A DNA stretch of 64,000 bases from the human T2T-CHM13v2.0 reference genome, Homo sapiens: NCBI RefSeq assembly GCF_009914755.1, contig NC_060935.1; one strand, written 5' to 3'. The notes under the pieces are model-generated. The model saw nothing but the letters and a program-made list of their open reading frames with translations, did not search any database and was not told the origin of the DNA. The position numbers were made by a program, and so were the translations under genes. Of the stretch, positions 18,105 to 23,440 are shown piece by piece; positions within the stretch are counted from its first letter, which is position 1, and each line of letters begins with the position of its first letter.

Positions 18105-21100
18105 GTTTTCTTTTTTATTTCTTTTTCAACTTTTACTTTAGAATTGGGCGTGCATATGCAGGTCTGTTACATGGGTAAATTGCATGCCACTGGGATTTAG
18201 TGTACAAATAATTTTATTATCTAGGTAGTAAGCATAGTGCCTGATAGGTAGTTCATCAAACCTCATTCTTCTGCCACCTGCCACCTGAAGTAGTAGGCCC
18301 CGGTGGCTATGATTCCCCTCTTTGTATCCATGTGTACTTAAAGTTTAGCTCTGCATATACGTGAAAACATGAAGTATTTAGTTTTCTATTTCTGTGTTAA
18401 TTTGGTTAGGATAATGACATCCAGCTGCATACCAGTTGCTGCATTTGACACAATTTTGTTCTTTTATGGCTGCATAGTATTTCATGGTGTAAATGTACCA
18501 CATTTGCTTTATCCATCCACCACTGATGGGCATCTAGGTTAATTCCATGTCTTTGCTATTATAAATAGTGCTACAATAAACATACAAGTACATATGTCTT
18601 TTGGGTAGAATGGTTTGTATTCCTTTGGGGTATATACCCAGTAATGGCATTGCTGGATTGAATGGTAATTGTTTTAAGTTCTTTGAGAAATCTCCAAACA
18701 GCTTTCCATGGTGGCTGAACTAATTTATACTCACACCAACAATCTATAAGAATTCCCTTTCCTCTTCAACCTTACCAAAATCTGTTATTTTCTAACTTTT
18801 TAATAATAGCTACTCTGACTGGTTTGAGATGGTATCTCATTGTAGTTTTGAAATGAGTTTCTATCATGATTAGTGATAATAAACATTTGTTCATGTGTTT
18901 GTTGTCCATAAGTATGTCTTCCTTTAAGAAGTATCTGTTGATGTTCTTTGCCCATTTTTTATTAGGTTGTCTGTTTCTTGCTTGTTGATTTGTTCAAGTT
19001 GTTTATAGATCCTGGCTATTAGACCTCTGTTGAATGCACAGATTGCAAATATTTTCTCCCATTCTGCAGGTTGTCTACTCTCTATGGGTCCTTTTATTTT
19101 GCAGAAGCTTTTTAATTTAACTAAGTCCCTCTTGTCTATTTTTTCTTTTTGTTGGAATTGTTTTTGGAGACTTCATCATGAAATGCCAGAGCTGATGCCA
19201 GAATGATACGTTTTAGATTTTCTCACAGAGGTTTTATAGTTTTAGATCTTAAATATAAGTCTTCAACCCATCTTGAGTTCATTCTTGTATATGGTGAAAG
19301 GAAGGGGTCCAGTTTCAATCTTCTGTGTATGACTGGCCAGTTATACCAGAACCATTTATTGAATAGGGAGTACTTTCCCCATTGTTATTATTGTCGACCC
19401 TCTCAAAGATCAGATGACTGTAGGTGTGTGGATTTATTTCCAGGTTCTCTAACTTGCTCCATTGGTCTGTCTGTTTTCCTGCAAGTCCCATGTTATTTTG
19501 GTTACTGTAGACTTGTAGTATAGTTTGAAGTCAGAGAGTATGATGCCTCCAGCTTTGTTCTTTTGGCTTAGGATTACTTTGGCTATTCAAACTCTTTTAT
19601 ATTTAATATGAATTTTTGAATACCTTTTTCTAATTCTTTGAAAAATGTCATTGCTAGTTTGATACGAATAGCATTGAATCTTTACATTCCTTTGATCGTA
19701 TGGCCATTTTAACAATATTGATTCTTCCTATCCATGAGCATGGAATAATTTTCCATTTGTTTGTGTCTTCTCTGAATTCTTTCAGCAAGTGTTCTCATTG
19801 CAGAGATTTTTTACCTCCCTGATTAGCTATATTCCTATGTATTTCATTATTTTGTGGCTATTGTAAATGGGCTTGTGTTCTTGATTGGCTCTCAGCTTAG
19901 ATGATAGTGGTATATAGAAATGCTACTAATTCCTGTACATAGATTTTGAATCCTGAAATTTTATTGAAGTTGTTTATCAGTTCTAGGATCTTCTTGGCAG
20001 AGACTATAGGGTTGTCTGGGTATAAAATCATATCATCTGTGAAAAGAGATAGTTCAACTTCCTATCTGAATGTCTTTTATTTATTTTTCTTGCCTGGTTG
20101 CTCTGGCTAGGACTTTCAGTATTACATTAAATAGGAGTGGTGAGAGTGGTGATCCTTGTCTTGTTCCAGTTCTCAGAGGGATTGCTTCCACCTTTTGCCC
20201 ATTTAGTATGATGTTGGCTGTGGGTTTGCCATAGAGGCTCTTATTCTGAGGTATGTTCCTTTGATGCCTATTTGTTAAGGGGTTTTGACATGGGGAGATT
20301 TTCAATTTTATCGAAAGCTTTTTCTGAATCTGGTGAGATGCTCATGTGGTTTTTGGTTTTAGTTCTGTTTATGTGATGAATCAAATTTATTGATTTCCAT
20401 ATGTTGAACCAAGTTTGCATCCCAGGGATAAAGCCTACCTGATTGTGGTGGATTTGAATTTTGATGTGCTGCTGGATTCAGTTTGCTAGTATTTGGTTGA
20501 GGATTTTTGCACCTATGTTTACCTGGGATATTGGCCTGAAGTTGGTTTTTTTTTTTCACTGTGTCTCTGACAGGTTTTGGTATCAGAATGATCCTGCCCT
20601 CACAGAATGAGTTAGAGAGAAGTCCTCCTTCTTGCTTCTCTGGAGTAGTTTCAGTAGGATTTGTACCAGCTCTGCTTTATACATCTGGTAGAATTCAGCT
20701 GTGAATCCATTTCATCCTGGGCTTTTTCTGGTTAGTAGGTATTTTACTACTGATTCAATGTCAGAATTCATTATTGGTCTGTTCAGGGTTTCAATTTCTT
20801 CCTGGTTCAATCTTGGGACATTTTATGGTTCTAGGAGTTTATCCATTACTTCTAGGTTCTCTAGTTTCTGTGCATAGAAGTATTCATAATAGTTTCTGAG
20901 GATTTTTTGTATTCCTTTGGGGTCAGTAGTAATGTCTCCTTTGTCATTTCTGGTTGTGTTTACTTGGATCTTCTCTCTTTTTTTATTTATTATTCTAGCT
21001 AGCAGTTTATCAATCTTATGTATTCTTTTAAAGAACAAATTTTTTGTTTCATCTATATTTTGTATAAATTTTCATGTCTCAATTTTGTTGTATTAAGTTC

Positions 21101-22728
21101 TGATTTTTATTTCTCTTCTCCTTCTAGCTTTAGCATTAGTTTGCTCTTGTTTTCTCTAGTTTCTCTAGGTATAGTGTTAGATTCTCAATTTGAGACCTTT
21201 GTAACTTGTTAACATGGGCTTTTAGCTCTATAAACTTTCCTCTTAACACTGCTTTAGCTGTGTCCCAGAGATTTTGGTATATCTTTTTTTCATTGGTTCT
21301 AAAGAATTGTTTGATTTCTGCCTTAATTTCATTCTTTACCCAATAACAATTCTGGAGCAGATTACTTAATTTCCATATAATTGTATTGTTTTGAGATATC
21401 TTCTTGGTATTAATTTCCATTGTTATTTCACTGTGGTCTGAGAGTGTGGTTGGTATGATTTCATTTTTATTAAATTGTAGAGAACTGCTTTATGGCTGAG
21501 CATGTGGTCAATTTGTGAGTATGTTTCATGTGACAATGAAAATAATGTATATTCTGTTGTTGTTGGGTAGAGTATTCTGTAGATGTCCGTTAGGTCCTCT
21601 GGTCAAGTCTTGAGTTTAGGTCCTGAATGTCTTTGTTGGTTTTCTCAATGATCTCTCTAATACTGTCAATGGGGTATTGAAGTCTCCCACTACTTTTCTG
21701 TAGTTATCTAAGTCTCTTTGAAGACCCATAAGAACTTGTTTTGTGAATCAGAGTGCTCCAGTGTTGGGTGCATATATATTTAGGATAGTTAAGTCTTCTC
21801 GTTGAATTGAATGCTTTATCATTGTGCCCTTTGTCCTCTTTGATCAATATTAAAGTCATTTTGTGTGAAATAATAATGTGAAATAACAGCATCTCTGCTT
21901 TTTTTTTTTTGTTTTCTGTTTGTTTAATAAATCTTTTTCCATCCTTTTACTTTGAGCTATGGGTGTCACTGCATGTGAGACGGGTCTCTTAAAGACAGCA
22001 TACAGTTGGGTCTTTCTTCTTTATCCAATTTGCCACTCTTTGCCTTTTATTGGGGCATTTAGCCCATTTACCTTCAAGGTTATATTGATATGTGAGGACT
22101 TGATCTTGTCATCATGTTAGCTAGTTGTTATGTAGACTTGATTGTGTAATTGCTTTATAGTCTCAATGGACTATGTTATTATGTGTCTCTTTGTAATGGC
22201 AAGTACTGATCTTCTATTTCCATGTTTAGCTCTCCTTTAAGGACCTCTTGTAAGGCAGGCCTTATAGTAATGAATACACTTAGCATTTGCTTGTCTAAAA
22301 AGGATTTTATTTCTCCTTTGCTTATGAAGCTTAGTTTGGCTGGATATAAAATGCTTGGATGACAAACACCGCATGTTCTCACTCATAATTGTGAGTTGAA
22401 CAATGAGAACACATGGAGATGGGGGCGGAGGGCATCACACACCAGGACCTATCAGGGGGTGGGGGACTAGGGGAGGGATAGCATTAGGAGAAATACCTAA
22501 TGTAGATGACGAGTTAATGGGTGCAGCAAACCACCATGGTATGTGTACACCTATGTAACAAACCTGCATGTTCTGCACATGTACCCCAGAACTTAAAGTA
22601 TAATAAAAAAAAATTCTTGGTTGAAATATCTTCTATTTGCACATGCTGAATATAGGCCTCCAATCTTTTCTCCCTTGTAAGGTTTCACTGAAGGGCACAC
22701 TATTAACCTGATGCGGTTCCCTTTGTAT
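18105..22728 (-). mobile_element. old L1 (L1PA15/16-like), from ORF1 C-terminal part to poly(A); ORFs disrupted
   Basis: ORF2 fragments ([32 protein letters not shown]), ORF1 fragment (YPAKLSFISKGEIKSF), and 3'UTR plus T tract near 18105. Confidence 0.9.
22363..22612 (+). mobile_element. short 5'-truncated L1PA6-8-like 3' end nested in the old L1
   Basis: L1PA 3'UTR plus A tail; TSD aaaatgcttggatga (22348-22362) / aaaattcttggttga (22610-22624); host ORF1 is continuous across it. Confidence 0.88.
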
Positions 22729-23440
22729 TGCCAAAAGAGCATCCCAAGAGCCTGTTCCATGGTGTACCCATATTTTTTCTGGCAATGGCAATGTACTCAA
22801 CCAGCTTTGCTTCTGACTCATTCTGATTTGGTGACCACACCAACATGCCAAGACTGTCCCAGTCTTGGCTGCATCTTGCCAGTTTGGTGGGGTTGAAGTC
22901 AGTCACCACCACCTGGTACTGGGGTCTGCCCCTCATGCCACCACCACTGTGCTCCCCATGGCTGGACAAGCCCAAATGATCTGCCTTCATCCCAGGAGGT
23001 TCTGCTGCCATTGCCATTGAGATCCCCCCCTGCCAAATTTTTATTCTGGCTATTACTGGGAGCAGTGGCAGTTGAGGCAGCAGCAGCTGAGGTGTAGGTG
23101 GTGGCAGTGGACAAAGATGTGGGCAAGGCATGGGTGGCCAAGGTGGTAGCAGCAGCTGAGGAGGTGGCCAACATAGCTGTGTTGTTCCTCCCTCTCCACT
23201 TCTCTGAGACCTCAGGGCCCTTCTCCACCATGACTGGCATCAGCAGGGGCAAAAGTGCTGGGGACCCACAGCTCCTGAGGATGGGGTCCTGAGCCAGGAG
23301 GAGGGAATGTGGGTGGACATGGGGTGGGTGTGGGGCCTTTTAGGCAAAGTAGGAGCCCACAGGTGCAAGTTAGAGCTGGGGCAGGCCCAGATGAGCAGAG
23401 CAGAGCACAGTTGCTTCAATCTCCCAGTGCCAAACTGAGC
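22729..23440 (-). pseudogene. RCOR1: processed, 3'-truncated RCOR1 (CoREST) retrocopy: 5'UTR, N-terminus and part of the ELM2 domain
   Basis: Frames give MPVMVEKGPEVSEKWRGRNN (ATG at 23240), [58 protein letters not shown] and [10 protein letters not shown], matching RCOR1 MPAMVEKGPEVSGKRRGRNN...[75 protein letters not shown]. No introns; two frameshifts; 5' boundary approximate. Confidence 0.92.

What the first reader, a model, noticed from the sequence alone, without database searches (positions are those of the whole stretch)
18105..23440. RCOR1 (CoREST) mRNA-L1 chimeric retrocopy, fused in frame to L1 ORF1
Seen: on the - strand, an intronless RCOR1 5'UTR and N-terminal CDS stops inside the ELM2 domain and joins directly to L1 ORF1 at about 22728: ATG GAA CAG GCT CTT GGG ATG CTC TTT TGG CAA | TAC AAA GGG AAC CGC ATC AGG TTA, i.e. 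[19 protein letters not shown] (RCOR1 [11 protein letters not shown]; L1 ORF1 YKGNPIRL). The L1 then runs colinearly to its poly(A) near 18105, and I see no RCOR1 3' half beyond it. Established: ordinary retrocopies keep the 3' end and lose the 5' end, whereas 5'-cellular-RNA/3'-L1 chimeras arise during retrotransposition (best known for U6-L1). Inference: RT switched from L1 RNA to RCOR1 mRNA, giving an initially in-frame RCOR1(N-terminus/ELM2)-ORF1(CTD) fusion followed by ORF2. The captured gene encodes a corepressor in the LSD1/HDAC complex. It is now disabled by a +4 and a -1 frameshift with a stop at 22899. An in-frame junction has a 1-in-3 chance by luck, and I could not find a TSD.
Basis: partly seen in the sequence, partly recalled or inferred. 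Interest (0 to 1): 0.8.

Follow-up and report, generated by a model that had tools for sequence, protein, structure and literature searches.

The report
Dead RCOR1 mRNA–L1 chimeric retrocopy
A spliced copy of the first 742 bases of the RCOR1 (CoREST) messenger RNA is joined head-to-tail to a 5'-truncated LINE-1 element in a DLG2 intron; it is an old, inactive example of a rare but already described kind of retrotransposition by-product.

Summary
On the minus strand, 23470-22729 is colinear with RCOR1 exons 1-4 plus the first 23 nt of exon 5. All four exon joins are intact, including the 77-nt intron 1. From 22727 an old L1 runs from the end of ORF1 to a decayed 21-nt poly(A) at 18126-18106. 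The join is sharp, with one unassigned base at 22728, and it is in frame. The +4 and -1 frameshifts and the stop at 22899 are as described. Corrections: the RCOR1 copy starts at 23470, not 23440, and a later inverted 253-nt L1 3' fragment with its own duplication interrupts the L1 at 22361-22613.

There is no RCOR1 3' half in the 64-kb window, and the start of the RCOR1 3' UTR has no copy elsewhere in the genome. The break lies inside exon 5, with no GT donor in RCOR1 and no AG acceptor in L1, so splicing is excluded. The two parts have similar ages, about 0.13 substitutions per site. The candidate target-site duplication (10 of 13) is not significant, so a single integration event is likely but not proven. 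An L1 insertion-mediated deletion inside an older RCOR1 pseudogene remains possible.

This kind is known (Buzdin-type chimeras; 17 mRNA/lncRNA-L1 chimeras in Law & Burns 2026). This locus is not in that table. Interest is low to moderate.

The parts
23471..23483 (-). Candidate 5' target-site duplication AAAAGAATACTAA, preceded by TT (L1 endonuclease-like TT/AAAA)
   Evidence: Read directly. It matches 18114-18102 at 10 of 13. This is not significant: 33 of 147 TT/AAAA 13-mers of the window do as well.
23232..23470 (-). Copy of the RCOR1 5' UTR (239 nt). Homology to the parent starts abruptly at C14:96828882.
   Evidence: There is no similarity upstream of 23470.
22729..23231 (-). Copy of RCOR1 coding exons 1-4 plus 23 nt of exon 5 (codons 1-170 and 2 nt of codon 171). 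All four introns are absent. Indels are -3, -6, -3, +4 and -1.
   Evidence: PDB REST corepressor 1 at E 1.2e-25. Pfam ELM2.
22728..22728 (-). Single A at the join that matches neither RCOR1 (T) nor L1 relatives (C in 9 of 9)
22614..22727 (-). First piece of the L1, in ORF1. It starts 14 codons before the Pfam dsRBD-like C-terminal domain (...YKGNRIRL...).
22361..22613 (+). Later, independent insertion: a 253-nt L1 3'-end fragment in the opposite orientation, with an A9 tail at 22605-22613. It is flanked by a 9-nt duplication of host L1 sequence (22614-22622 AACCAAGAA; 22352-22360 ATCCAAGCA).
   Evidence: matches other L1 3' ends at 77-85%. In one search, the 8 of 9 relatives readable at this site carry the site once (the ninth diverges before it).
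18127..22360 (-). Rest of the L1: end of ORF1 (stop at 22179-22181), ORF2 (RVT_1 about 20084-20555) and the 3' UTR ending ...AAAAGTTG. Many stops and frameshifts.
18106..18126 (-). Decayed poly(A) tail AAAAAGAAATAAAAAAGAAAA
   Evidence: In one search, 7 related copies end at ...GTTG followed by an A-run.
18102..18114 (-). Candidate 3' copy of the target-site duplication (AAAAGAAAACCAG). It overlaps the tail.
   Evidence: 10 of 13, not significant

Best explanation
This is a bipartite chimeric retrocopy that entered the genome as one cDNA in one L1-driven, target-primed reverse transcription event, roughly 50-60 million years ago. The date is inferred from about 0.13 substitutions per site and a recalled neutral rate.

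The proposed sequence of events is as follows. Reverse transcription started on the poly(A) of an L1 RNA and copied about 4.36 kb, up to the last quarter of ORF1. The enzyme then left the L1 RNA, possibly adding one untemplated base. It continued on an RCOR1 mRNA at an internal point 23 nt into exon 5 and ran to that mRNA's 5' end. The result was RCOR1(5' UTR, codons 1-170)-ORF1(last 94-95 codons)-ORF2-3' UTR-A(n).

The in-frame join is most simply a 1-in-3 coincidence. The element has since decayed and has no evident function.

Shown: the anatomy, the processed nature of the RCOR1 part, the sharp non-splice junction, the absence of an RCOR1 3' half, and similar ages of the two parts. Inferred: that both parts arrived together, and that the hybrid arose by template switching rather than from a hybrid RNA made beforehand.

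My odds are about 0.6 for a one-event chimera. Within that, about two-thirds is for the template switch.
For: (1) Four exon-exon joins are intact and the copy reaches a sharp 5' end.

(2) The join has the same orientation and at most 1 nt of filler.

(3) The break is inside exon 5. The parent reads TGGCA|TAAACA (no GT), and L1 relatives read CACC|TACAAA (no AG in 9 of 9), so splicing did not make it.

(4) There is no A-run between the parts, so the RCOR1 part had no poly(A) of its own.

(5) RCOR1 sequence downstream of the break is absent from the whole window. The 592 nt after the L1 tail are unique and unrelated to RCOR1. The fetched gene region does reach the C-terminal exons (residues 390-472 of the 482-residue chain). 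The 2 kb from the last coding exon into the 3' UTR has no other copy in the genome.

(6) Ages agree. The star-tree terminal branch of the L1 part is 0.129-0.130 (K2P), and 0.156 by FastTree, over 1962 nt against 14-15 relatives. The RCOR1 part's non-CpG K2P is 0.135 over 564 sites (0.095 for exons 2-5, 0.158 for exon 1).

(7) The 5' boundary sits at TT/AAAA, and a 13-nt candidate TSD (10 of 13) lies exactly at both ends.

(8) The kind is documented, including cases where no splice donor could be assigned and one with a 5'-truncated L1 (CDC42 row of Table S5).
Against: The TSD is not demonstrable. Thirty-three of 147 endonuclease-like 13-mers in the window match the tail region equally well, so the hallmark of a single integration is missing.

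Both flanks are single-copy. The empty site therefore cannot be rebuilt from a repeat, and no other species' genome could be examined.

Equal ages are within wide errors and do not exclude two events a few million years apart.

The classical definition of these chimeras asks for a full-length 5' RNA (PMC2104539, Background passage seen). Here the mRNA is cut after 742 nt.

The locus is absent from Law & Burns' Table S5 (0 occurrences of RCOR1 in the main text and in the 4 supplement files held). Their pipeline may have missed it because the L1's 5' end is fragmented by the later insertion (my inference).
Confidence: 0.6

Rival explanations
1. Two events at this locus. A canonical, full-length RCOR1 processed pseudogene inserted first. 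Later an L1 integrated nearby in the same orientation, with an insertion-mediated deletion. Its cDNA 5' end was joined inside the pseudogene's exon-5 sequence, and everything between there and the endonuclease nick was lost (the RCOR1 3' part, its poly(A) and some flank).
For: No significant TSD flanks the whole unit, as expected for insertion-mediated deletions. The TT/AAAA site at 23484/23483 would then simply be the older pseudogene's own target site. L1 5' ends are normally joined with 0-2 nt of microhomology or filler, as seen here. That L1 insertion-mediated deletions occur is recalled knowledge, not read here.
Against: It needs a deletion of at least about 2-5 kb, the rest of the RCOR1 cDNA, ending exactly at the L1's two ends. 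It also needs the same orientation by chance. There is no age gap between the parts. No canonical RCOR1 retrocopy exists anywhere in the genome as precedent. One search found only the parent for the 3' segment. One search found only two RCOR1-derived copies, both 5' pieces.
Confidence: 0.2
2. One integration event, but the hybrid existed as RNA before reverse transcription. Either a cleaved RCOR1 mRNA 5' fragment was ligated to an L1 RNA 3' fragment (as proposed for U6-L1). Or a now-lost allele had a 5'-truncated L1 inserted in RCOR1 exon 5, and its RCOR1-promoted, spliced, L1-polyadenylated transcript was retrotransposed.
For: The present-day sequence is identical to that of the template-switch model. 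Law & Burns list RNA ligation and gene-driven expression of 5'-compromised L1s among their mechanisms (sections 10, 13 and the Figure 7 legend). An in-frame upstream ORF ending at the ORF1 stop would mimic the native bicistronic layout. That last point is speculative.
Against: There is no direct evidence. The parent gene today has no L1 at exon 5 (one search shows an intact exon 5). The lost-allele version needs two retrotranspositions and the loss of an allele.
Confidence: 0.2
3. Independent neighbouring insertions of an RCOR1 retrocopy and an L1, followed by an ordinary deletion that fused them.
For: It cannot be excluded without orthologous loci. There is no significant TSD.
Against: It needs three events and the same orientation, with a deletion of several kb whose ends leave a clean, colinear join with at most 1 nt of filler. 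There is no leftover RCOR1 3' sequence or L1 5' sequence.
Confidence: 0.08
4. Cis- or trans-splicing of RCOR1 pre-mRNA to an L1 transcript, followed by retrotransposition. This is the main route proposed for mRNA-L1 chimeras by Law & Burns 2026.
For: Most catalogued mRNA-L1 chimeras carry first exons in sense orientation, and six end at splice donors (section 13).
Against: Tested and not met. The RCOR1 part ends 23 nt inside exon 5, where the parent has CA|TA and not GT. L1 relatives have CC, not AG, before the first L1 base (9 of 9). The L1 is 5'-truncated by about 1.66 kb instead of near full length.
Confidence: 0.02

Closest known systems
Bipartite L1 chimeric retrogenes (Buzdin/Gogvadze type; U6-L1 is the commonest)
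   Same: A cellular RNA copy lies at the 5' side. It is joined directly and in the same orientation to a 5'-truncated L1, with a poly(A) at the 3' end and truncation at an arbitrary L1 position. These features are quoted in the PMC2104539 Background passage.
   Different: The 5' partner is not a full-length RNA. It is the first 742 nt of a multi-kb mRNA, cut inside an exon. Flanking direct repeats cannot be demonstrated.
mRNA/lncRNA-L1 chimeric insertions of Law & Burns 2026 (Cell Genomics, PMC13174262; 17 loci, Table S5)
   Same: The start of a gene's spliced transcript lies in sense orientation upstream of an L1. The upstream piece is under 1 kb. There is an EN-like site. One listed case (CDC42) also has a short 5'-truncated L1 and no splice donor assigned.
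   Different: Most listed cases have near full-length L1s and many have junctions at splice donors. Here the L1 lacks about 1.66 kb and the junction is inside an exon. All 6 rows I read (part 1 of 3 of Table S5) carry clear 14-16 bp TSDs. RCOR1 is not in the table.
Ordinary processed pseudogene (annotated here as LOC100419092, REST corepressor 1 pseudogene)
   Same: An intronless, decayed copy of an mRNA, with an L1-endonuclease-like target site at one end.
   Different: It keeps the 5' end and lacks the 3' end and its own poly(A). That is the reverse of what target-primed reverse transcription of an mRNA alone produces.

Membership tests
Processed (retro)copy of RCOR1 mRNA | Colinear with spliced exons, introns absent | tested here: met
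   Four exon joins are intact. The parent exons lie up to 115 kb apart on C14.
Processed (retro)copy of RCOR1 mRNA | Own 3' end and poly(A) tail | tested here: not met
   The copy stops 23 nt into exon 5 with no A-run. There is no RCOR1 3' sequence in the window or elsewhere.
Bipartite L1 chimeric retrogene (Buzdin type) | The 5' part is a full-length copy of a cellular RNA | tested here: not met
   Only the first 742 nt are present. The 5' end is complete, and the 3' end is cut inside exon 5.
Bipartite L1 chimeric retrogene (Buzdin type) | The 3' part is a 5'-truncated L1 ending in poly(A) | tested here: met
   The L1 runs from the end of ORF1 to ...GTTG plus a 21-nt decayed A-tail.
Bipartite L1 chimeric retrogene (Buzdin type) | Parts directly joined in the same transcriptional orientation | tested here: met
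   At most 1 nt of filler, with both parts on the minus strand.
Bipartite L1 chimeric retrogene (Buzdin type) | The whole unit is flanked by short direct repeats (TSD) | tested here: inconclusive
   A 13-nt candidate matches at 10 of 13 in the right places. However, 33 of 147 control TT/AAAA sites match as well.
Bipartite L1 chimeric retrogene (Buzdin type) | Both parts arrive together in evolution | not testable with these tools
   No other mammalian genomes are on hand. Ages of the parts are compatible (0.13 vs 0.135), but that is not decisive.
Splice-mediated mRNA-L1 5' transduction (Law & Burns 2026) | The gene part ends at a splice donor, and/or the L1 part starts after an acceptor | tested here: not met
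   The break is inside exon 5, with no GT in the parent and no AG in 9 of 9 L1 relatives.
Splice-mediated mRNA-L1 5' transduction (Law & Burns 2026) | Near full-length, protein-coding L1 | tested here: not met
   The L1 starts about 1.66 kb into the element, estimated against the window's 6.1-kb L1.

The most novel reading that the evidence does not exclude
The in-frame join was not an accident. In this reading, a 5'-truncated L1 sitting in (or ligated to) RCOR1 exon 5 was expressed from the RCOR1 promoter as a bicistronic RNA. Its first ORF was an RCOR1(1-170)-ORF1p(C-terminal domain) fusion ending at the native ORF1 stop. That layout would preserve ORF2 translation and let this promoter-less, ORF1-deficient L1 copy itself in cis. 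It would be an example of promoter and ORF capture rescuing a crippled L1.
Probability: 0.07. Interest if true: 0.6.

Novelty: new member of a known kind. Interest (0 to 1): 0.3.

Why it matters
Chimeras between mRNA and L1 record how the L1 reverse transcriptase, or RNA processing before it, recombines cellular RNAs. The most recent catalogue attributes most mRNA cases to splicing. This locus is a clean counter-example. Its breakpoint lies inside an exon with no splice signals on either side, which points to template switching or RNA ligation at an internal mRNA position. It also appears to be missing from that catalogue. It adds one data point to the spectrum of breakpoints, and it illustrates how a later insertion near the L1 5' end can hide such events from automated pipelines. 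There is no sign of a function. The captured corepressor fragment is long dead.

Tried and rejected
**Splicing origin.** Rejected from the junction bases.

**L1 nested in a complete RCOR1 pseudogene.** Rejected. blastn of the whole window against 150 kb of the RCOR1 gene gave 2026 HSPs. Only four unique ones were exonic, all within 22751-23470. The four other low-copy hits were intronic.

**RCOR1 3' half moved elsewhere.** Rejected.

**Other copies of the junction in the genome.** None among 40 scored of 56 candidates.

**Rebuilding the empty site from a repeat spanning the insertion.** Not possible, because both flanks are single-copy.

**TSD search by local alignment and ungapped scan.** It found only an A-rich 10-of-13 match, which is not significant.

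**Fetching ten full-length L1 relatives.** I used the 3.4-kb loci already held, so the age estimate rests on 1962 nt of the L1, not all 4.3 kb.

**Subfamily name.** It could not be assigned because no repeat library was available. 'L1PB/old L1PA grade' is only a recalled impression.

**Pfam scan of the gene's 3' region.** It failed on output size and was replaced by a PDB sequence search of 1200 nt.

**Buzdin 2003 list (NAR 31:4385).** Not held, so I cannot say whether this locus is in it.

**Literature searches.** 'LOC100419092' gave 0 papers. 'RCOR1' + 'retrocopy' + 'LINE-1' gave 1 paper, seen in the listing only.

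
Full report
**What is there**

I read the minus strand of 17900-23700 and searched the window's own genome with 22700-23460. 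The stretch matches chromosome 14 in separate pieces. I fetched 150 kb of that gene region and aligned it.

Window 23470-22729 is colinear with five parent segments:
- C14:96828882-96829412
- C14:96829491-96829550
- C14:96918237-96918320
- C14:96937624-96937676
- C14:96943697-96943719

Each segment is bounded in the parent by canonical AG...GT. The first intron is only 77 nt, and it too is missing from the window copy. The exon joins lie at window 22948|22947, 22888|22887, 22804|22803 and 22752|22751.

The translated copy hits PDB chains named REST corepressor 1 at E 1.2e-25, against 2.4e-08 for REST corepressor 3. It also hits Pfam ELM2. Homology to the parent begins abruptly at 23470, which is 239 nt before the ATG at 23231-23229. 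There is no similarity further upstream. The copy therefore reaches what looks like the mRNA's 5' end.

**The junction**

The RCOR1 part ends 23 nt into exon 5. The window reads TTTTGGCA-A-TACAAAGGGAACCGCATCAGG. The parent continues TGGCA|TAAACATAATATCG.

A genome search with 141 nt across the join returned 40 scored places of 56 candidates. L1 copies matched from query position 71-76 onward, and the parent exon 4 matched up to position 50. Only the window itself spanned the join.

In 9 of 9 related L1 copies the sequence is ...GGTCACC|TACAAAGGGAACCCCATCAGGCTA. So L1 identity starts at 22727 and RCOR1 identity ends at 22729. The A at 22728 fits neither source. There is no GT at the RCOR1 break and no AG before the L1 start.

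The reading frame is continuous (…[19 protein letters not shown]…, ORF 22593..22796). At birth the unit would have encoded RCOR1 residues 1-170 fused to the last 94-95 codons of ORF1p, followed by ORF2.

There are also three in-frame deletions in the alanine-rich region.

**The L1**

Pfam finds the ORF1 dsRBD-like C-terminal domain in two pieces and the reverse-transcriptase domain.

The element is colinear with the window's other L1 (11390-17513, plus strand) in one HSP of 3978 columns, 22358..18462 against 13154..17110. By that yardstick it lacks about 1.66 kb at its 5' end.

Its 3' UTR is family-specific. Seven related copies end ...TAAAATAAAAGTTG followed by A-runs. That puts this copy's end at 18127 and its decayed 21-nt tail at 18126-18106.

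The L1 is interrupted at 22361-22613 by a 253-nt L1 3'-end fragment in the opposite orientation, with an A9 tail. A 9-nt stretch of host L1 sequence is duplicated on both sides of the fragment. The 8 of 9 relatives readable at that site carry it once. It is therefore a later, separate insertion.

**Is the RCOR1 3' half anywhere?**

blastn of the whole window against the 150-kb gene region gave 2026 HSPs, nearly all intronic repeats. The only unique exonic matches are 22751-23470.

The fetched region does include the C-terminal coding exons. A 1200-nt stretch of L021 encodes residues 390-472 of the 482-residue chain (E 1.8e-46). The stop codon is at C14:96962850.

The 2 kb from the last coding exon into the 3' UTR has no other copy in the genome. 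The 592 nt after the L1 tail and the 430 nt before the RCOR1 start are single-copy.

A simple 'L1 nested in a complete pseudogene' is therefore excluded.

**Ages**

For 1962 nt of the L1 aligned with 14-15 related copies, the window copy's terminal branch is 0.129-0.130 (K2P, star-tree least squares) and 0.156 (FastTree).

The RCOR1 part differs from the parent at non-CpG sites by K2P 0.135 over 564 sites:

| Region | Non-CpG K2P |
|---|---|
| Exons 2-5 | 0.095 |
| Exon 1 | 0.158 |
| All | 0.135 |

In addition, 87 of 160 CpG positions have changed. The two parts are of similar age, which is compatible with joint arrival. The errors are wide, so this is not proof.

**Target-site duplication**

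The 5' flank reads ...AAAGTT|AAAAGAATACTAA|TGAAGTGA(RCOR1). The end of the tail reads AAAAGAAAACCAG|GCTTTTGG. That is a 10-of-13 match in exactly the expected places, with a TT/AAAA endonuclease-type site.

As a control I took every TT/AAAA 13-mer in the window, on both strands. Thirty-three of 147 reach 10 of 13 somewhere in the 86-nt tail region, as do 782 of 18282 sampled arbitrary 13-mers. The duplication is therefore plausible but not evidence.

**Mechanism**

Splicing, in cis or trans, is excluded by the junction.

A one-event chimera fits everything seen: same orientation, a clean join with a possible untemplated base, no internal A-run, a complete mRNA 5' end, one poly(A), equal ages and no 3' half. 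I give it about 0.6. Within it, template switching of the L1 reverse transcriptase from L1 RNA to an internal point of the RCOR1 mRNA is the simplest route. A hybrid RNA made beforehand would leave the same sequence. Such an RNA could come from ligation of RNA fragments, or from a transcript of a lost allele with an L1 in exon 5.

The main rival is an L1 insertion-mediated deletion inside an older, complete RCOR1 pseudogene, at about 0.2. It explains the missing TSD. However, it needs a multi-kb deletion and a canonical RCOR1 retrocopy, a type for which the genome offers no other example. Separate insertions followed by an unrelated deletion get about 0.08.

**Comparison with what is known**

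The defining features of bipartite L1 chimeras are quoted in the Background passage of PMC2104539: full-length 5' RNA, 5'-truncated L1, direct same-sense join and flanking repeats. They are met here except for the full-length 5' partner (not met) and the repeats (inconclusive).

For Law & Burns 2026 (PMC13174262) I read sections 10, 13, 23 and 39-41, passages found by term search, and part 1 of 3 of Table S5. They catalogue 17 mRNA/lncRNA-L1 chimeras in hg38. Most have near full-length L1s, and six end at splice donors. They favour splicing. One row, CDC42, has a short 5'-truncated L1 and no donor assigned, so the present type has precedent.

RCOR1 occurs 0 times in their main text and in the 4 supplement files held, although long cells are cut. 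Their pipeline takes 25-1000-bp upstream gaps. This locus would therefore qualify by size, and may have been missed because the L1's 5' end is split off by the later insertion (my inference).

Searches for 'LOC100419092' gave 0 papers. 'RCOR1' + 'retrocopy' + 'LINE-1' gave 1 paper, seen in the listing only. Neither found a description of this chimera. Buzdin 2003 could not be read.

**Verdict**

This is a real, well-defined, dead RCOR1-L1 chimeric retrocopy, and a new member of a known kind. Its modest value is as an exon-internal, non-splice junction. The in-frame fusion shows no sign of having mattered.

Noticed in passing
L004 (G000:C11:17449725-17452838), locus positions about 1278-3094: A second RCOR1-derived retrocopy on chromosome 11. 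It holds exon 1 and exon 2, with the 77-nt intron removed, joined to about 1.3 kb that matches C14:96830199-96831489 inside RCOR1 intron 2. It looks like a copy of an alternative short RCOR1 transcript with a terminal exon in intron 2.
   Followed up: partly
window 22361-22613 (+): A 253-nt L1 3'-end fragment with an A9 tail, inserted in inverse orientation into the ORF1 remnant of the older L1. It is flanked by a 9-nt duplication (AACCAAGAA / ATCCAAGCA).
   Followed up: yes
window 11390-17513 (+): An L1 of full-length size (6.1 kb) lies on the opposite strand, only 592 nt from the chimera's poly(A) end. I used it as a colinearity yardstick. Its own state was not examined.
   Followed up: no
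G000:C14:96829413-96829490 (parent RCOR1): RCOR1 intron 1 is a 77-78-nt mini-intron between the GC-rich exon 1 and a 60-nt exon 2. It is spliced out in both retrocopies.
   Followed up: partly
whole genome: The first 2 kb from RCOR1's last coding exon into its 3' UTR has no second copy in the genome. Apparently no canonical, 3'-anchored RCOR1 processed pseudogene exists, and both RCOR1-derived retrocopies found are 5' pieces.
   Followed up: partly
L025 and L026 (G000:C23:100846763-100847220 + and 100728982-100729439 -): Two L1 copies on chromosome X, about 118 kb apart and in opposite orientation, are identical over the 1.9 kb compared (zero branch lengths). They are presumably arms of a large inverted duplication.
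   Followed up: no
L007 (G000:C12:94119907-94123017): A stretch about 72% identical to the RCOR1 copy runs across the exon 3/4/5 joins without interruption. It barely matches the RCOR1 gene at DNA level. It is possibly a retrocopy of a paralogue (RCOR2 or RCOR3), but this was not identified.
   Followed up: no
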